Positions 26,871-37,025 of a stretch of DNA of 64,000 nt are shown here, in pieces. The position numbers and the translations under genes are program-made. The stretch is from assembly GCA_048571215.1 (NCBI GenBank), contig CP182352.1, positions 736,001 to 800,000 on the forward strand, written 5' to 3'. How positions within the stretch are numbered: the first letter of the stretch is position 1; every line of letters begins with the position of its first letter. The notes under the pieces were generated by a model that worked only from the letters and a program-made list of their open reading frames with translations, did not search any database and was not told the origin of the DNA. This stretch comes from Halarcobacter sp. (lineage in GTDB: Bacteria > Campylobacterota > Campylobacteria > Campylobacterales > Arcobacteraceae).

Positions 26871-27482
26871 GTGGATAATCATATTTTAAAATTACCATTT
26901 ATTTTTGATAAGAAGAAACTAATAGAAGATTTATCACAAGTAAATGAATCTTTTTTGGTTAAACATCCAAATACTAATTATCCTACACCACTTTTTTCTA
27001 AGATGTCATATATACCAAAAATTTTAGAAAATTTTAAAACAAAAATTGAAGCAGTTAGATTTATGAATCTAAAAGCTAATTCTCAAATAAAAGAGCATTG
27101 CGATAGAGAATCCTATTTAGAAAAGGGGTTTATAAGAATTCATATTCCTATAAGTACTAACGAAAAGGTAAAATTTATACTTGATAGTATAGAAGAAAAG
27201 TTAGAACTAGGATGTTGTTATTATATAAATGCAGATAAACCTCATTGCATTGAAAACCTTGGAACAACGGACAGAATTCATTTACTTATAGATTGTAAAG
27301 TAAATGGTTGGCTTAAACAATTATTTTATAATCAAGGATTTGTAGAAGAGAAATCTCTTTATAATAATCATATCAGTGATGAAAATATAGATGATGTAAT
27401 CAAAAATCTAAAACTTATGAATACTATAGTACCAGATAAATTAATCAAAGATTTTGAAAAGATGAGAGATAGACAATGTTAA
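26871..27482 (+). CDS. Aspartyl/asparaginyl beta-hydroxylase-family Fe(II)/2OG oxygenase
   Basis: RFMNL..NSQIKEHCD (HxD), RIHIPI, PHCIEN distal His, DRIHLLID. Confidence 0.82.
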   Translation: MDNHILKLPFIFDKKKLIEDLSQVNESFLVKHPNTNYPTPLFSKMSYIPKILENFKTKIEAVRFMNLKANSQIKEHCDRESYLEKGFIRIHIPISTNEKVKFILDSIEEKLELGCCYYINADKPHCIENLGTTDRIHLLIDCKVNGWLKQLFYNQGFVEEKSLYNNHISDENIDDVIKNLKLMNTIVPDKLIKDFEKMRDRQC

Positions 27483-27964
27483 AAAACTTAAATAAAAATT
27501 TATTAGTAAAGGTAGAAACAAAAGAAGATGAAAATTTTTTATTTAAATTATTTTCTTCTACAAGAGAAGATGAATTGTCATTTCATAATATTTTACCAAA
27601 AGAGAAAAAGATTTTTTTAATGCAACAATTTAATGCAAGACAAAAAGATTTTAAAATCCGTTATGAAGATGCAAATTTTTTTATTATCAAACATAAGGAA
27701 AAAGATGTTGGAAGAATAGTTTATAAAATAGCACAAAAAATACAACTCATAGATATAGCATTAATATCAAAATCTAGAAATAAAGGTTTTGGCACTTATT
27801 TAATTCAAACTTTGATGAAAAAAGCACTTGAAACAAATCTTGAACTACATCTAAGTGTCGCAACCAATAATCCAAAAGCTTTTAAGTTATATAGAAGTTT
27901 AGGTTTTAAAATTATTTCGCAGGATATGATGTATATACAAATGGCATTTAATAAAAATAGCTAA
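27476..27964 (+). CDS. GNAT N-acetyltransferase
   Basis: DIAL...RNKGFGT acetyl-CoA motif, N.KAFKLYRSLGF; overlaps the upstream gene. Confidence 0.88.
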   Translation: MLKNLNKNLLVKVETKEDENFLFKLFSSTREDELSFHNILPKEKKIFLMQQFNARQKDFKIRYEDANFFIIKHKEKDVGRIVYKIAQKIQLIDIALISKSRNKGFGTYLIQTLMKKALETNLELHLSVATNNPKAFKLYRSLGFKIISQDMMYIQMAFNKNS

Positions 27965-27994
27965 ATCTTCTATTTAAGGTTTAGCTATTTTTAT
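27951..27994 (+). terminator. 15-bp-stem hairpin (terminator or mRNA-stability element)
   Basis: ataaaaatagctaaa ... tttagctatttttat perfect inverted repeat spanning the GNAT stop. Confidence 0.65.
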
Positions 27995-28037
27995 GCTCAT
28001 AGTAAATGTGTATAAAAATTTTTATTAAGGAGATGAT

Positions 28038-28562
28038 ATGGCAGATGCATATATTGGAGAGATAAGGTTATTTGCTGGTAATTATGCACCACGAGATTGG
28101 GCCTTATGCAATGGTAGTTTAGTTGCAGTAGTATATAATGAATCTTTATTTTCACTTTTAGGTACTGCATATGGTGGAGATGGAGTAAATAATTTTGCTC
28201 TTCCAGACTTTAGAGGTAGAGTTCCAATGCATTTTGGAACAGGTGTTGGCTTAACACCAAGAACAATTGGTAGAAAATTTGGTTATGAAATTGTAACTTT
28301 AAGTATTGATGAAATGCCACAACATAATCATAATCTAATGGCACAACCTGTAGATGCACATTTGAATGATCCACAAGATGCTTTTATAGCAAAAAGTTCG
28401 TCAGATTTTTATGATGATAATGCAGAAAAGAATCCCCCAGTTACATTGTCGGATGATGCTTTAATGAACAGCGGTCATAATGAAGCACATTCAAATATTC
28501 AACCATGTTTAGGCTTAAGTTTTATTATATGTTTAAGTGGTGAATATCCAAGTAGAAATTAA
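28038..28562 (+). CDS. Phage tail-collar domain protein 1 (MdpB-like)
   Basis: YIGEIRLFAGNYAPRDWALCNG..LFSLLGTAYGGDG.NNFALPDFRGR; C-terminal YPSRN. Confidence 0.9.
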   Translation: MADAYIGEIRLFAGNYAPRDWALCNGSLVAVVYNESLFSLLGTAYGGDGVNNFALPDFRGRVPMHFGTGVGLTPRTIGRKFGYEIVTLSIDEMPQHNHNLMAQPVDAHLNDPQDAFIAKSSSDFYDDNAEKNPPVTLSDDALMNSGHNEAHSNIQPCLGLSFIICLSGEYPSRN

Positions 28563-28572
28563 AGGAGATATT

Positions 28573-29103
28573 ATGGCAGACGCTTATATAGGGGAGATTA
28601 GATTACTTCCATATACTTATTCACCAAGATATTGGATGAGTTGTTCAGGTCAAACACTTCCTATTTTTGAATATTCAAAGTTATATAGTGTTATTAGTAC
28701 AACATATGGTGGTGATGGGGTAACAACTTTTGCACTTCCTAATTTATCTGGAAAATTACCAATTGGAACAGGGACAGGACCTGGTTTGAGTTCTCGTTAT
28801 CTTGGGCAAGGTGTTGGATCATCATCAGTTCAATTATCAGCTCTTCAGATACCAGAACATAACCATAAAATTGATAAAGTTTTTACCGATAGCCCTGTTC
28901 AAAATACACCAAGTAATTTAATGTATTTGGGGAAAATGAAAAAGAATAATTATTATAAAGAAGCAGTAACTACGGAGGAAGTTTATATGAGTAATAGTGC
29001 AGTTTCTAATACAGGGCAATCTGTAGCTCATGAAAATAGACAGCCTTCTTTGGCTTTGCAATATTGTATTTGCGTAGATGGTATTTATCCATCACGAAAT
29101 TAA
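28573..29103 (+). CDS. Phage tail-collar domain protein 2 (MdpB-like)
   Basis: YIGEIRL..YGGDGVTTFALPNL; YPSRN; AAGGAG RBS fixes start at 28573. Confidence 0.9.
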   Translation: MADAYIGEIRLLPYTYSPRYWMSCSGQTLPIFEYSKLYSVISTTYGGDGVTTFALPNLSGKLPIGTGTGPGLSSRYLGQGVGSSSVQLSALQIPEHNHKIDKVFTDSPVQNTPSNLMYLGKMKKNNYYKEAVTTEEVYMSNSAVSNTGQSVAHENRQPSLALQYCICVDGIYPSRN

Positions 29104-29114
29104 AAGGAGATATT

Positions 29115-29648
29115 ATGGCACAACCATTTATTGGCGAAATAAGAATGATGGGATTTGATTTTAATCCCAGAGATTGGGCTTTATGTGATGGGCAAATTTT
29201 CCCAATACAAAAGAATCCAGCACTTTTTAGTTTGTTAGGAAATACCTTTGGTGGTGATGGTATAAATACTTTTGCATTGCCAGATTTAAGAGGAAGGTCA
29301 CCTTTAGGTATAGGAACTTTTGGTTCTTCTCATTATTCCCAAGCAGATCAATGTGGAGTTGAATTAGTTAAACTTTTAGAAGCTAATCTACCTTGTCATT
29401 CTCATCAAATGTTAGCTACTAATTATGATGGTGATAGTAATAAAGCTATAAATAATAGTTCAATTTTAGCAAAATCAGACTATACAGGGCTTTTATACTC
29501 AAAGGATCCAAGTAGCTTAGTTAATTTGGCTGTAGATTCAGTTAGTATGGAAGGAGGTAATCAATTTCATTACAATATGCAACCTACACAAGTAATTAAT
29601 TTTTGTATTGCTTTAGAAGGACTTTATCCAAGTAGACCTTATATTTAG
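29115..29648 (+). CDS. Phage tail-collar domain protein 3 (MdpB-like)
   Basis: FIGEIRM..WALCDG..FGGDGINTFALPDLRGR; YPSRPYI; AAGGAG RBS fixes start at 29115. Confidence 0.9.
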   Translation: MAQPFIGEIRMMGFDFNPRDWALCDGQIFPIQKNPALFSLLGNTFGGDGINTFALPDLRGRSPLGIGTFGSSHYSQADQCGVELVKLLEANLPCHSHQMLATNYDGDSNKAINNSSILAKSDYTGLLYSKDPSSLVNLAVDSVSMEGGNQFHYNMQPTQVINFCIALEGLYPSRPYI

Positions 29649-29679
29649 AGGGAGAGTTCTCCCTCTAATGGTTTTTTTT
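29645..29679 (+). terminator. Terminator hairpin at convergent junction
   Basis: ttagagggaga-gt-tctccctctaa followed by tggttttttttt. Confidence 0.65.
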
Positions 29680-30424
29680 TATTTAATTCTGATGCATATT
29701 CAAAAAGTTTTAAATCATAATAGTTCTCTTGGTTTATTTGTTTTTTCATGCCATTATTTAATTTATAATGTTGTTTGATAAATTCAATTTTTTTTGTATG
29801 ATTTAATCCTTCTAAAGCATTTCCTTTATATCCAGTGACTCTTTTCTTTTCAAATGATGTAGGAAGATTCATAAGGTTAAAGAGTTTTGGTAAATCTTCA
29901 TCAAGTTTGTGGGTTAAAAGAATAAAGTCACATTTATCAAAAAGTTTTTTTGCTAACTCAAACTTTTCATTATCTGAAAAGTTAAGATTTATAGGCATTA
30001 GTTTTTTTGCATAAAAATTGCATATGAAGTTTCTATTTTTTACTTTATAAGTATTATTATACCAATCTTCAAAATTTTTTTTAATAATATTTTTACTTTT
30101 TTCAAAATTATATATTGAAACAATTTGATCTGCTGGACTTCTCATAATAGCAATATAATAAGGAGTTTTATTTATAAAATGTTTATGTATCCCATAATAT
30201 GTTTTATGACCACTAAGTACTTTAATTTTCTCTTTTTCAGAATTATCACGTTTTTCAAAATCTATACAATTGTTTTCTTTTCTATACTTTTCTCCCCAAT
30301 TTGCTAAATGTATAAATTCTTCATCCCATAGCAGATGCTTTTTGAAATGCCCATTTATTGTTGTTCCTCCAGATTTTCTTAAATGAAAGAAAATAAAAAG
30401 TTTATTGTTATTCAATGATTTCAT
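29645..30424 (-). CDS. Sulfotransferase (Sulfotransfer_2-like)
   Basis: FFHLRKSGGTTI 5'-PSB-like loop; MRSPADQIVSIY 3'-PB-like motif. Confidence 0.75.
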   Translation of the reverse strand: MKSLNNNKLFIFFHLRKSGGTTINGHFKKHLLWDEEFIHLANWGEKYRKENNCIDFEKRDNSEKEKIKVLSGHKTYYGIHKHFINKTPYYIAIMRSPADQIVSIYNFEKSKNIIKKNFEDWYNNTYKVKNRNFICNFYAKKLMPINLNFSDNEKFELAKKLFDKCDFILLTHKLDEDLPKLFNLMNLPTSFEKKRVTGYKGNALEGLNHTKKIEFIKQHYKLNNGMKKQINQENYYDLKLFEYASELNKKKPLEGELSL

Positions 30425-31217
30425 ATTTAAAATAATCCATAAGAGATTTATTTTTTATAAATATTTTATTTATGATTTTTATTTGTTCTTTGCTTAGTTT
30501 ATTAATTTGTTTTTGATTCATATTTGTAAGAGTTTCGTTGTATATACCTTTTACTAGAATTTTTTGTTTTAAGTTTATATCCTTTAGTTCTGGTAAAAAG
30601 TTTTTGATTTTGTTTTCAATTAAATCAGGTGTATCACACATTTGTTCATAGGTAAAAAATATACTGTTATCTTTAAATGTTTCAAGATTGCTTTTTTGAT
30701 ATTCAAAACATTTCATTATATGTTTTGCAGCAATCTCAAAGATATCTTCATTATCTTTACAGTTTTTTAATTTTCTTCTACTGATTCCTTCAACAACAGC
30801 ATAGGGGTTTCTTACCATAAATATAAAATAAGTATTAAAAAAATTTTGTTTGAGTTGATCTACTATTAGTAAAAAAGGTGGAGTTTTAGTAGTGAAAATT
30901 GATGCTATATTTGTTTTTGAAAAAGCTTGAAAATACCAAGCTTTTTTTGTTATTTTCCATGCATAAAGAGATTTATCTAAGAGTATATCTAGACTTTCTT
31001 TACTAGAAGCCCAGATTAAAGGTTTGTTGACTGTTTGGGTTGTTGGACCTTTATATCCATATATCCATTGAGCTTCTCTTTTTAGGTTCCAAGTGTTATT
31101 ACAAGTTTGTAGAATGTTTTCAAAAAAAGTTGATCCACTATTGTTGGGACAAATCAAAAAAAGATGTTTTTCAATTAACTTTTCAAGTTCAAATTGTGCT
31201 GATAGATATTTTTTCAT
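30408..31217 (-). CDS. Sulfotransferase (Sulfotransfer_3-like)
   Basis: CPNNSGSTFF loop, KTP, FIFMVRNPYAV, TYEQMC. Confidence 0.7.
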   Translation of the reverse strand: MKKYLSAQFELEKLIEKHLFLICPNNSGSTFFENILQTCNNTWNLKREAQWIYGYKGPTTQTVNKPLIWASSKESLDILLDKSLYAWKITKKAWYFQAFSKTNIASIFTTKTPPFLLIVDQLKQNFFNTYFIFMVRNPYAVVEGISRRKLKNCKDNEDIFEIAAKHIMKCFEYQKSNLETFKDNSIFFTYEQMCDTPDLIENKIKNFLPELKDINLKQKILVKGIYNETLTNMNQKQINKLSKEQIKIINKIFIKNKSLMDYFKYEIIE

Positions 31218-32089
31218 ATTTTATCTTTTGTTTGTTCTTTTATACTAAGATATTGAAAAGCTTCAGTATAGTTTTCTTGCCATAATTTGAAAAATTTTAA
31301 AAGTACAATATCTTTTTGTATTTTGAAAAAATAGTTTTTAAAACTCCATGGTTTTGCACCATTAAAATGTAAAACTTTTATCTTTTTTATATTTTTAGGA
31401 ATAAAATTATTTAACTCTTTTCTTCTATTTAGTAGACAATTGTATGTTATTGGAAGAAAATTTGTATGATTTTCTAAAAGTTTGTTAAATACTATTTGAT
31501 CAGTATATGGTTCTTTTATATTTTGCCAAAATTTATAATCAAGATATTCTAATGTTTTTTTAAAATATATTTGTGAAACAAAATGCTTTGGCAAATATAT
31601 AAGTCCAGCATTAAAAGTTTTGTTTAGATTGTTTTTATCATTTTGATTAAAAACTACATCAAAAGTTGTTTTGTCCCTTGAATATCCTAAATATTGTATA
31701 TATTCAGCACATACAAGTACTTTTTCTTTTTCTTCAAAAATTTCACTTATATTGCTATTAAAAAGTATATCACTATCACAAAATAATATATTGGAGTTTG
31801 TATTTAAATTAAAAAGCTCCAAAGAGTAAAATCTATTTTTTTTATGTTTTAAATTAGGAGATTTAGAAGTTAAGATATCAACAGCTAATTTTAAATTTTT
31901 TGAAATAGAATGAAAAATTATATTTGGGAAGTTTTTAAGTATATTTTGATTTTCTATACTTAGTTGATTATGTAAAATTATGATTTTACCTTTAAACGTT
32001 GAATTAAACTTTAAAAAAGAATGAATCATCACAATACTACCAGTGATAAAGTTGTCACTAGTAACTGTCACAAGAGAAAGTGGATTCAA
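31214..32089 (-). CDS. Glycosyltransferase family 8
   Basis: DSD (DxD), FNAGL, DQIVFN, YN, HFNGAKPW. Confidence 0.85.
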   Translation of the reverse strand: MNPLSLVTVTSDNFITGSIVMIHSFLKFNSTFKGKIIILHNQLSIENQNILKNFPNIIFHSISKNLKLAVDILTSKSPNLKHKKNRFYSLELFNLNTNSNILFCDSDILFNSNISEIFEEKEKVLVCAEYIQYLGYSRDKTTFDVVFNQNDKNNLNKTFNAGLIYLPKHFVSQIYFKKTLEYLDYKFWQNIKEPYTDQIVFNKLLENHTNFLPITYNCLLNRRKELNNFIPKNIKKIKVLHFNGAKPWSFKNYFFKIQKDIVLLKFFKLWQENYTEAFQYLSIKEQTKDKI

Positions 32090-32106
32090 ATTATTTTTGT
32101 TTTATT

Positions 32107-32280
32107 TTAAGAATAATCTGCTATTCCATCAGATTGGCGGCTATTATTTGCATATGTTACAGTTTTTGTTATATCTGAAATTGTACCAAGTGATTTGAAC
32201 TCAGGTGAATGATATTCTTTTAATAGACTTTTATCATTTTGTTCTTTTTTTGCTTCTGTTATATTTTTATTATCTTTCAT
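32107..32280 (-). CDS. Lasso-type RiPP precursor peptide (57 aa)
   Basis: Not in ORF track. Manual translation MKDNKNITEAKKEQNDKSLLKEYHSPEFKSLGTISDITKTVTYANNSRQSDGIADYS*; YxxPxFxxxGxxxxxTx leader; AAGGA RBS; ATGA overlap with PqqD stop. Confidence 0.88.
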   Translation of the reverse strand: MKDNKNITEAKKEQNDKSLLKEYHSPEFKSLGTISDITKTVTYANNSRQSDGIADYS

Positions 32281-32552
32281 TTTATATCCTTTTTAAGTAA
32301 TAAGTTTTTATCATTTAATCTATTTATTAGATTATTAATATCTTCATCTAGTCTTTTTTCTGAAGTATCATAAACCATTAAGAGTTCTTGGATCACTTCT
32401 TCTTGATTTAATCCTTTTTGAAAGAGTTCAATAATCTCAGAACCAACTTTATCTAAAGAAAAATACTCTTCTGTTTGAAGATCTAACAAAATTGTGTCTT
32501 CGTTTAGTTTTTGTATTATTACATCTTCTTTAAAGCTAAGAATTTCTGACAT
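32277..32552 (-). CDS. PqqD-family RiPP recognition element (lasso B1/E-like)
   Basis: 91 aa; ILLDL..EEYFSLDKVGSEIIELF, YD...LDEDI..LI..L...NLL pattern. Confidence 0.88.
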   Translation of the reverse strand: MSEILSFKEDVIIQKLNEDTILLDLQTEEYFSLDKVGSEIIELFQKGLNQEEVIQELLMVYDTSEKRLDEDINNLINRLNDKNLLLKKDIK

Positions 32553-32648
32553 AAAATCCCCTTTTTCTAATAATACTTTTATTTATTTTAAAATTATATT
32601 AAATGATATTATATTATAATATATTATTCTAAATATTATGGAAAAAAT

Positions 32649-34493
32649 ATGAATTCAATTTTTGGAATCTTTACTACTAACTCCAATCTTATAAGAGAAA
32701 ATACAAATGGTAAATTTCATAATAATTTTAAATATTCCATTGAGACATATTTAGATGAAAATATCCTATTAAAAAAAACTTTTCGTAATAAAAAATATAC
32801 TCAAAAATTAATAGAAAAAAATAATATTATCTTAATAGGCAAAATAAGGGTTTATAATAAAAATGAATTAATTAATCAATTTAATTTAAAAAATCAAGAC
32901 TCTTCATCTAATGAATTATTTCTAATAACCCTATATTTAAAACTTGGAAAAGATTTTATAAAGTATCTTAAAGGGCATTGGAGTGTTGCTTTATGGGATA
33001 AAAGTAAAAGAGAATTGTTTTTATCAAGAGATGATTCAATACAAACAAATCTTTATTATTATTGGGATAAAAACTTATTTATTTTTTCAAGTAATCTAAG
33101 AGCTATTTTAGATATTAAGTATATAAATAAAGAATTAAATAAACAGGCGATATATTCTTATAGTGGAATTCCAAATGATAATCAAACTTTATATAAAAAT
33201 ATTTTTGAATTAACTTCATCATCTTTTATTCAAATTGGTTTAAATCAAACTATGAAAATCTCAAATTATGAGTCTTTTAATAAAATAAAAAAAATTGAAT
33301 ATGACACAACTGAACAATATATAAATAAATTTATTAAAGTTTATAACTTTGCAATTGAAAATTGTATTAAAAATTATGATAATATAGCTTCCACCTTAAG
33401 TTCTGGTTTGGATTCAGGTTCAATCACAACATTGGCTTCAAAAATACTTGAAGAGAAACAAAAAAAACTTTACAGTTATAGTTTTGTATCAACTTATGAA
33501 ACAGAAAGTATAAGTAAAAATAGATTTTCTGATGAAACTCAAGGGATAAAAAAAATACTAGCTACTTTAAATAATGTTGAATCAAAAATTTTAAAAAATA
33601 CTAATCTTTCATATGTTGATGCTTTTAATTTAAATTTAGATCTATTAGGACAACCTTTAGGAACTGCTAATATAGATAATTGTCTTAATATGGTATCAGA
33701 ATCAAAAAATGATAACATGGATATTTTGTTGATAGGGCAAAATGGAAATTTCACTATATCTTATCAAGGAGATTATGGATATTATTTAAATAGTTTGTTA
33801 AAAGGTTTTAAGTTTTCTGAGTATTTCAATAATCTTTTTAAAGAAGATAAATATTTAAAGAATTTATATTTACAAATTTCTAATTTAAATTTTATACATC
33901 ATTTAATACATAAAAAACATAAGAAAAAAATTGATAAAACAAGCTTTATAAATAAAAATTATCTTAATTTGAATAAAGTAAGTTCCAATAACCCTGAAAA
34001 AGAGTTTTTAGTTAGGTTAACCATTTTTAAACACCATAAACACTTAATAAAAAATAAATATAAATGGAATGAGTGGGGAGAACTTTTAGGAATTGAAATA
34101 CAAGACCCTACAACCAATATAGACTTAGTAAATTTTTGTTATGGCATACCTGAAAATCAATATATAGACAAATACAATGAAAAACTTTTGATTAAAAATG
34201 CAATGAAAGATTTAATGCCAAAAGAGATTTTATGGGCAAAAAAAAGGGGACAACAATCAGCTGATTTAATTGAAAAATTTAAACAACAAGAGGAACAAAT
34301 AGGGGATAATTTATCTATGATATTTAACTCAACTTTATGTAAAGAGTATCTTGATATTAATGGTTTAGAAAATACTTTTTTAAATTTAAATACTTCTTTA
34401 GATAGGAAAAAACTTTTTGAAAACTGCTATCAATTATTACGTGCATTACATTATGGAATGTTTTTATTAAGACTTGAAAGGAATTGTGTTTGA
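32649..34493 (+). CDS. Asparagine-synthetase-like protein, putative lasso cyclase
   Basis: LSSGLDSGSI ATP-pyrophosphatase loop; lacks N-terminal Cys (MNSIFG); GQNGNFTISY, DPT..DLVNFC.GIP, KRGQQSAD. Confidence 0.82.
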   Translation: MNSIFGIFTTNSNLIRENTNGKFHNNFKYSIETYLDENILLKKTFRNKKYTQKLIEKNNIILIGKIRVYNKNELINQFNLKNQDSSSNELFLITLYLKLGKDFIKYLKGHWSVALWDKSKRELFLSRDDSIQTNLYYYWDKNLFIFSSNLRAILDIKYINKELNKQAIYSYSGIPNDNQTLYKNIFELTSSSFIQIGLNQTMKISNYESFNKIKKIEYDTTEQYINKFIKVYNFAIENCIKNYDNIASTLSSGLDSGSITTLASKILEEKQKKLYSYSFVSTYETESISKNRFSDETQGIKKILATLNNVESKILKNTNLSYVDAFNLNLDLLGQPLGTANIDNCLNMVSESKNDNMDILLIGQNGNFTISYQGDYGYYLNSLLKGFKFSEYFNNLFKEDKYLKNLYLQISNLNFIHHLIHKKHKKKIDKTSFINKNYLNLNKVSSNNPEKEFLVRLTIFKHHKHLIKNKYKWNEWGELLGIEIQDPTTNIDLVNFCYGIPENQYIDKYNEKLLIKNAMKDLMPKEILWAKKRGQQSADLIEKFKQQEEQIGDNLSMIFNSTLCKEYLDINGLENTFLNLNTSLDRKKLFENCYQLLRALHYGMFLLRLERNCV

Positions 34494-35380
34494 ATTATTA
34501 TTATGCTTATAATTTTGTTTTTAAATCAGAACTAGAAATACCAGAGTTAGAAGTTTGTGAAAATAAAGATTATGATGTAGAGATTAGGTTTGACTCAATT
34601 AATTATGATTTTGATAAATTTAAGAAAAATAGAATATGGAAAACAAAAGATAATTATTTTGTATTAAAAGTTAAAAATATAGGTATATTTTTAGTAAAAG
34701 ATGCAAATACAATTATTATAGATTGTTTTGAAAATACAAAAGAAGAAGATTTACGCTTTGTGTTATTGGGTTCTGTTTTTGCTGCTTTATTACAGCAAAA
34801 AAAACTTTTAACTTTGCATGCTGGGTGTGTTAAAGTAGATAACAATAATTGTATTTTATTTATAGGACCATCAGGTTATGGTAAATCAACTTTGACAACT
34901 GCATTTTCTAATTTAGACTATGAAATTCTTTCTGATGATGTTGTAGCTTTAGATATAAAAGAGAAACAAATCAGTATTCCACCTTCATTTCCTAAGCTAA
35001 GACTATGGAAAGATTCTGCAAAACAATTAAAGTTAAACTATGAAAGTTTTTCTACGTCAAGAGTTGGTTTAAAAAAGTATATGATTCCAATTCCTAGATT
35101 TTGTAAAACAAAACTAAATTTAAAAAAAATATATCTTTTAAATGTATATAATAAAGATGAAATTATCTTAGAAGAGTTAAACGGTGCACAAAAAATAAAA
35201 GCTTTGATTGACAATACTTATCGTATTAAATTTTTATCTGGAATGAAACTTATAAAGAATCATAATACTCAGATTTTAAAAGTATGTTCACAAATTGATA
35301 TTGTAAAAATTACTAGACCTTTAAATGTTTTTTTAATTGATGAATTGATTGAAAAGATACAAAAAGATTTATTAAAATGA
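34484..35380 (+). CDS. HPr-kinase-like peptide kinase
   Basis: LHAG, GPSGYGKST Walker A, LSDD. Confidence 0.82.
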   Translation: MCLNYYYAYNFVFKSELEIPELEVCENKDYDVEIRFDSINYDFDKFKKNRIWKTKDNYFVLKVKNIGIFLVKDANTIIIDCFENTKEEDLRFVLLGSVFAALLQQKKLLTLHAGCVKVDNNNCILFIGPSGYGKSTLTTAFSNLDYEILSDDVVALDIKEKQISIPPSFPKLRLWKDSAKQLKLNYESFSTSRVGLKKYMIPIPRFCKTKLNLKKIYLLNVYNKDEIILEELNGAQKIKALIDNTYRIKFLSGMKLIKNHNTQILKVCSQIDIVKITRPLNVFLIDELIEKIQKDLLK

Positions 35381-36204
35381 AAAAGATTTATTGGTTGGCC
35401 TCTTACCCTAAGTCTGGAAATACTTGGTTAAGAGCACTATTAACATCTTATTTTAGCAATGCTGACTTTAATATAAATCAATTGTTGGGAAATAATTTTA
35501 TATCAAGAAATGAATTTGATGATTGGCTTGGTTTAGAATCATCTGATTTAAAAGAGAGTGAAATTACTATGTATCGGCATTATTACTATTTGGATATTGC
35601 TGCAAATCTAGATAAAATAATATTTATAAAAGTTCATGATTTAAACAGATTAACAATAGAAAATAAAGAGTTATTTCCAAACACAATAACAAAAGGAACT
35701 ATCTATCTAGTTAGAAACCCTTTAGATATTGCAGTATCTTATGCACATCACGAAAATTGTAGTTTAGATGAGATTATAAAAAAGATGAATGATACTAATG
35801 CTTTTCTATTGCCCTATACTGAAAAGTTAAAATTATCATTGCCCCAAAAATTATCATCTTGGAATGAACATGTAAAAAATTGGAAAGAAAAAGATAATAT
35901 TAAAATTGTTAGATATGAAGATATGGTTTTAGATACAAAAAATGTTTTTATGGGGATTCTTACATTTATGGGGTTTGAAATTGATGAAAAGAAGATAGAT
36001 AAGGCAGTAGATTTATCAAGTTTTGAGCATCTTAAAAAACAAGAACAAAATTATGGTTTTGTAGAACGATCTGCAGAAGCTAGTTCTTTTTTTAGATCAG
36101 GAAAAATTGGTGAAGGAAGAAAAATCTTAACTAAACAACAAATAAAAAAGATTATTGATAAAAACTATGAAATGGTAGAATATTTTGGGTATTTAAAAGG
36201 TTAA
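35377..36204 (+). CDS. PAPS-dependent aryl/tyrosyl-type sulfotransferase (Sulfotransfer_1)
   Basis: WLASYPKSGNTW, KVH, YLVRNPLDIAVS, RYEDM, FFRSGKIG. Confidence 0.9.
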   Translation: MKKIYWLASYPKSGNTWLRALLTSYFSNADFNINQLLGNNFISRNEFDDWLGLESSDLKESEITMYRHYYYLDIAANLDKIIFIKVHDLNRLTIENKELFPNTITKGTIYLVRNPLDIAVSYAHHENCSLDEIIKKMNDTNAFLLPYTEKLKLSLPQKLSSWNEHVKNWKEKDNIKIVRYEDMVLDTKNVFMGILTFMGFEIDEKKIDKAVDLSSFEHLKKQEQNYGFVERSAEASSFFRSGKIGEGRKILTKQQIKKIIDKNYEMVEYFGYLKG

Positions 36205-36206
36205 TA

Positions 36207-37025
36207 TTGGATAATAAAATTGATAAAATAGAATTTGTTAAGCAGCTTAAAAAAAGTGAATCAAAATTTTTTGTTTCTAGTAGGTTTTTAGATGAAGATA
36301 TGGATTTAGATATTTATTTGAAGTTTTTTTATCCATATTTAAGGTTAGAGCAAATAGAGTCAATATATGGGTTTGCATTACAATTAAGTAGTTTATATGG
36401 GGGACGTTCATATAAAAAAGGAACTTTAGCAACAAAGAAACATTTAAATCAATTAAAAAAGTTGAATATAAATTTTTCATTAACTTTAACTAATCATTAC
36501 TTTAGTGATGAAGCTTTTGAAGAAAGTTTTGAGTTGTTAGAGTATTTACATAAACATGGAAATTCAATTACTGTTACAAATAATAAACTTGTAAAAAAGA
36601 TTAAAGAGTTTTTTCCTTTATTTACTTATAAAGCAAGTTTGATTAAACATCTTGATAGTTTAGAAAAAGTTAATAATGCTTTGAAAATATATGATTATAT
36701 AGTGGTTCCAATGGATAAAAATGATGATGATATTTTTTTAAATTCATTGCCATATAAAGAGAGAATAATTCTTTTTATAAATGCAAATTGTGCTTATAAT
36801 TGTCCTTCAAGAATTTGCTATACTTCAATTAGTAAAAGTTTATCAAATAGACAAGATAGTTCAAATTTTGATTGTTCTATTTATAATATTCCACGCAAAA
36901 ATTTGGGACATATATTTTTCAATCTTAAAAAGTTTGAGAATATGGGATTCTCAAACTTTAAATTAGTTCCTCAATATAGTGAAAAGCTTATTGGTATGGT
37001 AAGAAATTTTTCAAAAAAGAATTAA
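36207..37025 (+). CDS. Cys-rich hypothetical protein, possibly U32-family-like
   Basis: LYGGR, NFSLTLTN, KASLIK, CAYNCPSRIC and a further Cys; TTG start, AAAGG RBS. Confidence 0.45.
   Translation: MDNKIDKIEFVKQLKKSESKFFVSSRFLDEDMDLDIYLKFFYPYLRLEQIESIYGFALQLSSLYGGRSYKKGTLATKKHLNQLKKLNINFSLTLTNHYFSDEAFEESFELLEYLHKHGNSITVTNNKLVKKIKEFFPLFTYKASLIKHLDSLEKVNNALKIYDYIVVPMDKNDDDIFLNSLPYKERIILFINANCAYNCPSRICYTSISKSLSNRQDSSNFDCSIYNIPRKNLGHIFFNLKKFENMGFSNFKLVPQYSEKLIGMVRNFSKKN

What the first reader, a model, noticed from the sequence alone, without database searches (positions are those of the whole stretch)
26871..37025. Candidate undescribed system: heavily tailored lasso-type RiPP cluster joined to a triple tail-collar module
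Seen: three blocks. (+) hydroxylase-GNAT-3x tail collar; (-) PqqD-precursor-GT8-sulfotransferase-sulfotransferase; (+) Asn-synthetase-like, HPr-kinase-like, sulfotransferase, Cys-rich protein. Most genes within blocks overlap or abut. Known: RRE + Asn-synthetase-like cyclase + HPr-type kinase is the paeninodin/pseudomycoidin-type lasso architecture described in Firmicutes. Inference: a single island may phosphorylate, sulfate, glycosylate, hydroxylate and acetylate a short peptide and/or the collar proteins. I know of no characterised lasso system in Campylobacterota, nor one coupled to tail-collar proteins.
Basis: partly seen in the sequence, partly recalled or inferred. Interest (0 to 1): 0.92.

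Follow-up and report, generated by a model that had tools for sequence, protein, structure and literature searches.

The report
Lasso-peptide genes beside fibre-tip triplet
A gene island joins a pathway for a knotted, chemically decorated 'lasso' peptide, which lacks its own cutting enzyme, to three phage-tail-tip-like proteins taken from the cell's giant-adhesin cassette; the same odd pairing recurs in unrelated bacteria and has no described function.

Summary
All 14 genes are real, but this is a mosaic, not one pathway. (1) 29645-37025 is a kinase-plus-sulfotransferase lasso-type locus: RRE, 57-aa precursor ending in Ser, cyclase-like enzyme, HPr-like kinase, three sulfotransferases, GT8 and a U32-fold protein (the 'Cys-rich' gene). 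It has no B2 peptidase or exporter; the genome's only intact B2 is 1.37 Mb away in a second lasso cluster. A 7-9-residue ring is possible only as Ala1-Asp8, at atypical leader spacing. (2) 26871-29648 (hydroxylase, GNAT, three collars) matches the family's giant-adhesin cassette in gene order and GNAT/hydroxylase trees. The orthologous 2991-aa adhesin gene lies 1.5 Mb away. The three collars model as a heterotrimer (0.67 vs best control 0.36). No paper found. This scan noted the pairing twice before on other genomes. New here: the pairing appears to have formed independently.

The parts
26871..27482 (+). Asp/Asn beta-hydroxylase-like 2OG-Fe(II) enzyme, 203 aa; keeps H76-x-D78...H125 but has a 29-aa in-frame deletion near the N-terminus; ortholog of the family's adhesin-cassette gene
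   Evidence: PF05118 E 1e-11; alignment; 49-53% identity to four family orthologs vs <=37% to others
27476..27964 (+). GNAT acetyltransferase of the collar cassette
   Evidence: PF00583; groups with the GNATs of two lasso-free family cassettes, support 0.995 among 42; GNAT present in 32 of 41 collar loci
28038..28562 (+). Collar protein class A, 174 aa, HxH motif, no signal-peptide-like N-terminus
   Evidence: PF07484; class; likeness to T4 gp12 and other fibre tips; N-terminus
28573..29103 (+). Collar protein class B, 176 aa
29115..29648 (+). Collar protein class C, 177 aa; A+B+C modelled as a heterotrimer
   Evidence: complex score 0.67 vs best control 0.36
29645..29668 (+). Terminator-like hairpin over the converging stop codons that separate the collar block from the lasso part
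   Evidence: consensus match only
29645..30424 (-). Sulfotransferase (PF03567/PF00685), 259 aa
30408..31217 (-). Sulfotransferase (PF13469), 269 aa
31214..32089 (-). GT8 glycosyltransferase, 291 aa; its homologs appear to share contigs with homologs of the U32-fold gene
32107..32280 (-). 57-aa precursor: YxxPxF leader motif; the only ring-compatible core is the last 14 residues, ANNSRQSDGIADYS (Ala1-Asp8; Tyr13; C-terminal Ser)
   Evidence: no family hit; no true homolog (self plus one chance hit)
32277..32552 (-). RRE/PqqD (B1), 91 aa
   Evidence: PF05402; best 5 of 58 compared RREs are the family's non-lasso RREs
32649..34493 (+). Lasso-cyclase-like asparagine-synthetase homolog, 614 aa, with an SGLDS ATP loop
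   Evidence: (NF033535 186 bits, cut-off 525); departs at 3 of 19 conserved columns
34484..35380 (+). HPr-kinase-like enzyme of the lasso-associated type, 298 aa, intact GxSGxGKST and SDD motifs
35377..36204 (+). SULT-like sulfotransferase that follows the kinase in many lasso loci, 275 aa
   Evidence: PF00685 E 2e-27
36207..37025 (+). U32-fold TIM-barrel protein with four invariant Cys (195, 199, 204, 223); candidate Fe-S tailoring enzyme
   Evidence: model pLDDT 93; best PDB match U32 Mk0906 5d88, E 1e-7, TM 0.58; 52%-identical paralog fused to a sulfotransferase in the second lasso locus

Best explanation
Two working modules of different origin sit tail to tail. Module 1 (29645-37025) makes a modified peptide. 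The RRE binds the 57-aa precursor, and the kinase phosphorylates its C-terminal Ser (inferred from paeninodin and proteobacterial kinases). A sulfotransferase adds sulfate, most plausibly on Tyr13 (inferred). A B2 peptidase borrowed from the genome's second lasso cluster removes the leader (inferred), and the cyclase closes an Ala1-Asp8 ring (inferred). GT8, the two extra sulfotransferases and the U32-fold enzyme are accessory tailoring genes that travel with this module. Module 2 (26871-29648) is the family's collar cassette. Three anciently diverged paralogues assemble 1:1:1 into a phage-fibre-tip-like binding knob (modelled, not shown), served by the GNAT and a possibly damaged hydroxylase. 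Its usual partner, a giant Ig/cadherin surface protein, is encoded 1.5 Mb away. The modules were joined in this lineage. Because the same joining recurs elsewhere, both probably serve one cell-surface recognition or attachment role, without forming one biosynthetic line.
For: B2 only at C1:2138727 (NF033537 67 bits, cut-off 33), beside ABC, NTase, kinase, sulfotransferase and cyclase genes. Family precursors keep lasso rules: 34 of 46 candidates have D/E at 7-9 vs 19.3 +/- 3.0 in shuffles, and 29 of the 34 end in Ser. APS kinase is present. Collar block order hydroxylase-GNAT-A-B-C matches two family adhesin cassettes; 10 of 12 other lasso-linked triplets are C-A-B and none is A-B-C. GNAT and hydroxylase group with the family cassettes. 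Adhesin, lipoprotein and OMP are 57%, 74% and 45% identical to those next to the triplet in G059, and the genome has only these three collars. One each of A, B and C in 26 of 29 triplets, including 11 of 12 held out of the profiles. Heterotrimer 0.67 vs 0.36 (mark met by 116 of 157 solved and 2 of 215 mismatched pairs; contacts agree >=97%, partner pLDDT >=86). Coupling recurs.
Against: No product or transcript was shown; RNA evidence is absent. The precursor's Thr lies 19 residues after the aromatic motif, against 13-14 in 31 of 34 family members, and the cut at canonical spacing gives no ring. The RRE is closer to non-lasso RREs than to the two in this genome's other lasso loci, so borrowing B2 may fail. 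The concatenated collar tree is unresolved (support 58; top identities 45.8% to a lasso-linked and 45.7% to an adhesin-linked triplet). Shared AT-rich composition could bias the GNAT, hydroxylase and RRE groupings. The complex pass may reflect likeness to solved fibre trimers, and homotrimers were not scored.
Confidence: 0.48

Rival explanations
1. Directly coupled system: the collar heterotrimer binds, displays or senses the phospho/sulfo peptide, or the tailoring enzymes act on both peptide and collars. The cassette can take either a giant adhesin or a RiPP cluster as partner.
For: Elsewhere the triplet and GNAT sit inside co-directional lasso operons (L074, L190, L122). A named record, NZ_CP039640.1, has PqqD, Asp/Asn hydroxylase, kinase, cyclase, precursor, 3 collars, GNAT, DUF6916 and B2 interleaved. 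A precursor-like ORF lies directly upstream of a triplet with no other lasso gene detected in 20 kb (L196). 7 of 10 kinase-bearing vs 12 of 240 other alphaproteobacterial genomes carry such collars. An ORF of >=850 aa lies within 3 kb in 31 of 36 lasso-free collar loci but 1 of 5 lasso-linked ones, and that one looks like a shadow frame. The window adds an apparently independent joining.
Against: Most lasso loci of this type lack collars (30 of 33 metagenome loci, many short; 17 of 17 Bacteroidota genomes unlinked). Most collar loci lack lasso genes (36 of 41). Here the blocks converge on a hairpin rather than share an operon. No binding was tested.
Confidence: 0.22
2. Chance mosaic in decay: the collar block was displaced from its adhesin and landed beside an incomplete lasso-like island. 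No peptide is made from this locus and the two parts have no shared role in this genome.
For: No B2 or exporter in the locus; odd precursor spacing; hydroxylase deletion. The third lasso locus holds only remnants of B2 and NTase, and the second is interrupted by a transposase-like ORF (IS256 name recalled). The lasso part is among the lowest-GC stretches (23.1% vs 28.5%; 1 of 488 windows as low). No kinase of this type in 183 other family genomes.
Against: All 14 frames are open. Departures from conserved columns are within the range of relatives for nine proteins tested. Landing beside one of three lasso loci by chance is a roughly 1% event (inference), and the pairing recurs in several phyla.
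Confidence: 0.25
3. The collars are a prophage or tailocin tail remnant.
For: PF07484 and likeness to T4 gp12 and other fibres; three or more short collars in 10 of 78 viral-collection loci (phage context not checked).
Against: None of the 16 proteins scanned in and beside the locus hit another phage structural family over cut-off. Triplets sit beside GNAT and giant cell-surface genes in bacteria and archaea. Three stable classes.
Confidence: 0.03

Closest known systems
Kinase-containing lasso clusters: paeninodin, pseudomycoidin and the proteobacterial kinase clusters (PMC8498205; section 8 and passages read)
   Same: Split B1/RRE, asparagine-synthetase-like cyclase, HPr-like kinase, precursor ending in Ser; putative sulfotransferase and nucleotidyltransferase genes were already noted in some Firmicutes clusters. 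The genome's second locus has the full set, and its precursor weakly hits NF033524 (17.8 bits, cut-off 27).
Tripartite tail proteins of virophage DSLV2 (PMC12724248; abstract and passages read)
   Same: Three consecutive PF07484 genes whose products co-purify as a 1:1:1 heterotrimer with a fibre-tip fold; binds Synechococcus cells, LPS proposed as receptor.
   Different: There it is a virion part. Here it is chromosomal, with GNAT and hydroxylase, no capsid genes, and an adhesin or RiPP cluster as genomic partner. Direct homology to the DSLV2 proteins was not tested.
T4 short tail fibre gp12 tip and related fibres (PDB 1OCY, 5IV5, 8KEC)
   Same: Collar domain match, E 8e-9 to 1e-5; invariant HxH in all three classes (its role as a metal site is recalled).
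   Different: Stand-alone 175-aa proteins with no shaft; three different chains rather than a homotrimer.
U32 family (Mk0906, PDB 5D88; Fe-S hydroxylases TrhP, RlhA, UbiU/V recalled)
   Same: TIM-barrel fold (TM 0.58, E 1e-7) and clustered invariant cysteines.
   Different: No Pfam hit, 12% identity. Fused to a sulfotransferase in the second locus; structurally similar Atlas clusters are fused to PF00685 or carry PqqD in 35% of members. A role in RiPP tailoring is untested.

Membership tests
Lasso peptide cluster | Precursor with leader motif, Thr at -2 and Asp/Glu at core position 7-9 | tested here: inconclusive
   Met only by the cut giving Ala1-Asp8, with Thr 19 residues after the aromatic motif; 13-14 in 31 of 34 family precursors; three other Thr choices give no ring
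Lasso peptide cluster | RRE (B1) | tested here: met
   PF05402 45.5 bits; below the NCBIfam lasso-RRE cut-offs; nearest compared RREs are non-lasso
Lasso peptide cluster | B2 leader peptidase in the cluster | tested here: not met
   PF13471 over cut-off only at C1:2138727, 1.37 Mb away; remnant at C1:604.9 kb
Lasso peptide cluster | ATP-dependent cyclase (C) | tested here: inconclusive
   Best NCBIfam hit NF033535 at 186 of 525 bits, as for the genome's other two (151, 214); ATP loop kept, 3 of 19 conserved columns changed
Lasso peptide cluster | Threaded macrolactam product | not testable with these tools
   Needs expression, MS and NMR or protease assays
Paeninodin-type phosphorylated lasso | HPr-like kinase plus C-terminal Ser on the core | tested here: met
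   Kinase motifs intact; precursor ends in Ser; rule from PMC8498205 section 8
Pseudomycoidin-type glycosylated lasso | Nucleotidyltransferase in the cluster | tested here: not met
   PF14907 protein only in the second locus; this locus has a GT8 instead
Cellular collar-triplet / giant-adhesin cassette (undescribed in papers found; noted in this scan) | One collar each of classes A, B, C plus GNAT | tested here: met
Cellular collar-triplet / giant-adhesin cassette (undescribed in papers found; noted in this scan) | Giant surface-protein gene adjacent | tested here: not met
   Not adjacent; the ortholog is at C1:2284041-2293016
Heterotrimeric fibre tip (DSLV2-like) | 1:1:1 assembly of the three chains | tested here: inconclusive
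   Model passes, 0.67 vs best control 0.36, but may reflect likeness to solved trimers; homotrimers not scored
U32 Fe-S hydroxylases | TIM barrel with Cys cluster binding 4Fe-4S | tested here: inconclusive
   Fold and four invariant Cys met; cofactor and activity not testable

The most novel reading that the evidence does not exclude
A domesticated phage fibre tip, built from three fixed paralogues, is a modular bacterial binding device that takes either a giant adhesin or a phospho/sulfo lasso peptide as its partner. It binds, displays or senses the modified peptide as a lock-and-key surface signal. This genome captures an independent hand-over from adhesin to RiPP, and its U32-fold enzyme is a new class of RiPP tailoring enzyme.
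Probability: 0.2. Interest if true: 0.9.

Novelty: new variant of a known kind. Interest (0 to 1): 0.6.

Why it matters
Kinase- and sulfotransferase-bearing lasso peptides have known chemistry but, per the review read, no established biological role. The chromosomal collar triplets have no function in the papers found. A recurrent, apparently repeatedly formed link between the two points both toward cell-surface recognition and gives simple tests: trimer co-purification, peptide binding, and knock-outs in a culturable Azospirillum with the interleaved cluster. The locus also offers a candidate sulfated lasso peptide and a candidate U32-type peptide-modifying enzyme. This copy is a poor model for chemistry, since it lacks B2; the interleaved alphaproteobacterial clusters are better.

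Tried and rejected
Expression: one RNA run holds 0.08 of the words; no reads were laid on the locus, so transcription is open and the share is no evidence. Precursor homologs: only self and a 1113-aa repeat protein, judged chance. Island ends: the flanking thioredoxin-like gene has different neighbours in 9 of 9 genus loci examined, so no empty site was found. No tRNA in the window. Promoter scan at chance level (79 vs 83.8 +/- 10). Repeats: only the collar paralogy is meaningful. The 11 weaker family kinase hits are another system: kinase, PqqD and an 'SRRxFLKK' peptide, with no cyclase or B2 seen in the 1.5-kb flanks. The 14 weak phylum hits were not examined for context. The kinase alignment was too divergent for the metagenome scan, so the sulfotransferase was used. 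A single lasso-linked collar clade was neither shown nor rejected (low supports; no formal test). U32 homologs: none in plasmids. Weak Pfam CHIPS hit on collar B is below cut-off and ignored. Papers: 0 hits for lasso + tail collar, lasso + PF07484 (24), 'microcystin dependent' (27) and the Xanthomonas/yapH set (33). Searches were seen as listings only, apart from PMC8498205. The library lacks most subscription papers and no supplements were read, so published co-occurrence tables (e.g. the RODEO survey, recalled) may already list this pairing.


Full report
Observation. Pfam confirms hydroxylase, GNAT, three collars, three sulfotransferases, GT8, PqqD and an asparagine-synthetase-like protein. 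Kinase and cyclase fall below curated lasso cut-offs. The segment 29645-37025 is 23.1% GC against 28.5% for the genome; 1 of 488 windows is as low.

The lasso part is incomplete on its own. The genome has four PqqD genes: one in a PQQ-type operon, this one, and two more lasso-type loci. The only B2 over cut-off is at C1:2138727. It sits with ABC, nucleotidyltransferase, a U32-sulfotransferase fusion, kinase, sulfotransferase, precursor and cyclase. The third locus keeps only remnants of B2 and nucleotidyltransferase. B2 was also not detected in three collar-linked alphaproteobacterial loci, L187-L189, so B2-less copies are not unique. PMC8498205 (passages) states that B and C are needed in all lasso clusters. 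Its section 8 states that these kinases phosphorylate the C-terminal Ser of the linear precursor.

The precursor. I collected 46 motif-filtered candidates near related lasso genes; some are false ORFs. 34 have Asp/Glu at core position 7-9, against 19.3 +/- 3.0 in 2000 shuffles (none reached 34), and 29 of the 34 end in Ser. The window peptide passes only with the cut that gives Ala1-Asp8, at spacing 19 rather than 13-14. Its RRE scores higher against five non-lasso family RREs (43-62 bits) than against the genome's lasso RREs (41, 33) among 58 compared. A lasso product is therefore plausible but not secure. APS kinase for the sulfate donor is present.

The 'Cys-rich' gene is a U32-fold TIM barrel (pLDDT 93; PDB 5d88, E 1e-7, TM 0.58) with four invariant Cys in 40 aligned sequences. 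Atlas neighbours include sulfotransferase fusions and a cluster with PqqD in 35% of members. Five of ten GT8 homologs share contig length and source with U32 homologs. I infer that these two genes, at opposite ends of the lasso part, travel together.

The collar block has its own history. These are the genome's only three collars. In 184 family genomes, four others have multi-copy full-length matches and two have strong single ones. None of these six neighbourhoods showed lasso genes; most showed very large proteins and tailoring enzymes. In G059 the order is hydroxylase, HExxH protein, GNAT, lectin-like, A, B, C, TPR, S8 peptidase, 2711-aa Ig/cadherin protein, lipoprotein, OMP. This genome has that last trio at C1:2.284-2.294 Mb (57%, 74%, 45% identical) without collars. 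The window's GNAT groups with the family cassette GNATs (support 0.995), and its hydroxylase is 49-53% identical to theirs against <=37% to others. Its A-B-C order with upstream GNAT is theirs; 10 of 12 other lasso-linked triplets are C-A-B. Against this, the collar tree is unresolved and AT-rich composition may bias grouping. The hydroxylase lacks 29 residues.

Heterotrimer. Triplet members fall into three classes across phyla. 26 of 29 triplets have one of each, including 11 of 12 not used in the profiles, some by thin margins. The profiles were seeded from my reading of the tree. The three window proteins with zinc score 0.67 against a best control of 0.36. That mark was met by 116 of 157 solved and 2 of 215 mismatched pairs, and these counts hold only roughly with my alignments and a ligand. 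Runs agree in >=97% of contacts and partner pLDDT is >=86. Solved fibre trimers are similar, so the pass may be from likeness. A viral precedent exists: three consecutive PF07484 proteins of virophage DSLV2 co-purify 1:1:1 (PMC12724248, abstract and passages).

Does the coupling recur? From the collar side, 5 of 41 genome loci have at least two core lasso genes within 10 kb (Starkeya, Azospirillum, a Spirochaetota MAG, two Chitinophaga); 32 have GNAT and 32 an ORF of >=850 aa within 3 kb. That sample leans to Paenibacillus. From the sulfotransferase side, the best 80 of 547 metagenome hits give 33 lasso loci, 3 with triplets (3 of 17 among loci >=8 kb), and 0 of the other 47 have collars. From the kinase side, with 300 genomes sampled per group and centres excluded: 6 of 13 alphaproteobacterial genomes have collars within 10 kb, confirmed by reading the loci. 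For Gammaproteobacteria it is 0 of 9, with one genome unscored; one of the nine has a triplet beside a cyclase-like gene and 15.5 kb from the kinase. For Bacteroidota it is 0 of 17. Chance proximity is about 0.4-3% per genome. In what appear to be the first 250 of the same alphaproteobacterial sample, 7 of 10 kinase genomes against 12 of 240 others carry such collars (Fisher p 5e-7, overstated because kin are not independent). Azospirillum plasmid NZ_CP039640.1 shows the full interleaved set under NCBI annotation; four other plasmid regions viewed did not show the pairing. Collar-linked kinases are scattered over a 68-sequence tree with weak support. Within the family and a 400-genome phylum sample, only this genome has full-strength matches to this kinase type (the profile includes its three kinases).

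Reading. Shown: gene content, missing B2, the distant adhesin ortholog, three collar classes, recurrence of the pairing. Modelled: heterotrimer and U32 fold. Inferred: every enzymatic step, use of B2 in trans, and a shared surface role. I put two modules with a loose common purpose at 0.48, chance mosaic in decay at 0.25, a directly coupled collar-peptide system at 0.22 and a phage remnant at 0.03.

Novelty. Both halves have known relatives. The pairing gave no paper, within a library that lacks most subscription papers. This scan noted the pairing on two other genomes and the adhesin cassette on at least six; these are unchecked notes, not support. What this locus adds is evidence that the pairing formed again from an adhesin-type cassette, a Campylobacterota-type host, and a U32-fold candidate tailoring enzyme. 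Verdict: new variant of a known kind, interest 0.6.

Noticed in passing
G000:C1:2138300-2149617 (L011, L014): Second, complete kinase-type lasso cluster: RRE, B2, ABC, DUF218, nucleotidyltransferase, transposase-like ORF, U32-sulfotransferase fusion, kinase, sulfotransferase, 51-aa precursor (Val1-Asp8, ends in Tyr-Ser), cyclase. A better target for chemistry than the window locus.
   Followed up: partly
G000:C1:604522-610107 (L012): Third lasso-type locus with RRE, remnants of B2 and nucleotidyltransferase, kinase, 39-aa precursor (Asn1-Asp8), SGNH/GDSL-like protein and cyclase; looks like a deletion derivative.
   Followed up: partly
G000:C1:2279793-2293933 (L229, L230): TPR/LicD protein, cytidylyltransferase, DUF4915, a 2991-aa FG-GAP/Ig/cadherin protein, lipoprotein and OMP: the adhesin cassette without its collars.
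   Followed up: partly
L204-L214 (11 family genomes): A different RRE system: short 'SRRxFLKK' (Tat-like) peptide, HprK-related kinase and PqqD, mostly beside genes that look like polysaccharide export genes (recalled); no cyclase or B2 in the 1.5-kb flanks.
   Followed up: partly
precursor set: Predicted first core residues in this family are unusually varied (G 10, N 5, A 5, V 3, S 3, T 2, and one each of Q, H, K, D, R, F among 34), while Asp/Glu at 7-9 and the final Ser are kept.
   Followed up: partly
L196:9732-9965 (G923): Lasso-precursor-like ORF directly upstream of a collar triplet, with no other lasso gene detected in the 20 kb fetched.
   Followed up: no
L152, L187, L192: Lasso-linked collars vary: a triplet with long hydrophobic N-termini that look like signal peptides (L152) and single collars (L187, L192).
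   Followed up: no
L042:999-2084 (G022): Two collar units are fused in one 361-aa ORF followed by a third, which fits an obligate mixed trimer.
   Followed up: no
window:27956-27994: Inverted repeat between GNAT and collar A (seen in the sequence), possibly a terminator or processing site that uncouples collar expression.
   Followed up: no
window:38242-38856: CD3072-family TudS-related putative desulfidase (NF045597 over cut-off) ahead of an amino-acid ABC transporter; outside the finding.
   Followed up: no
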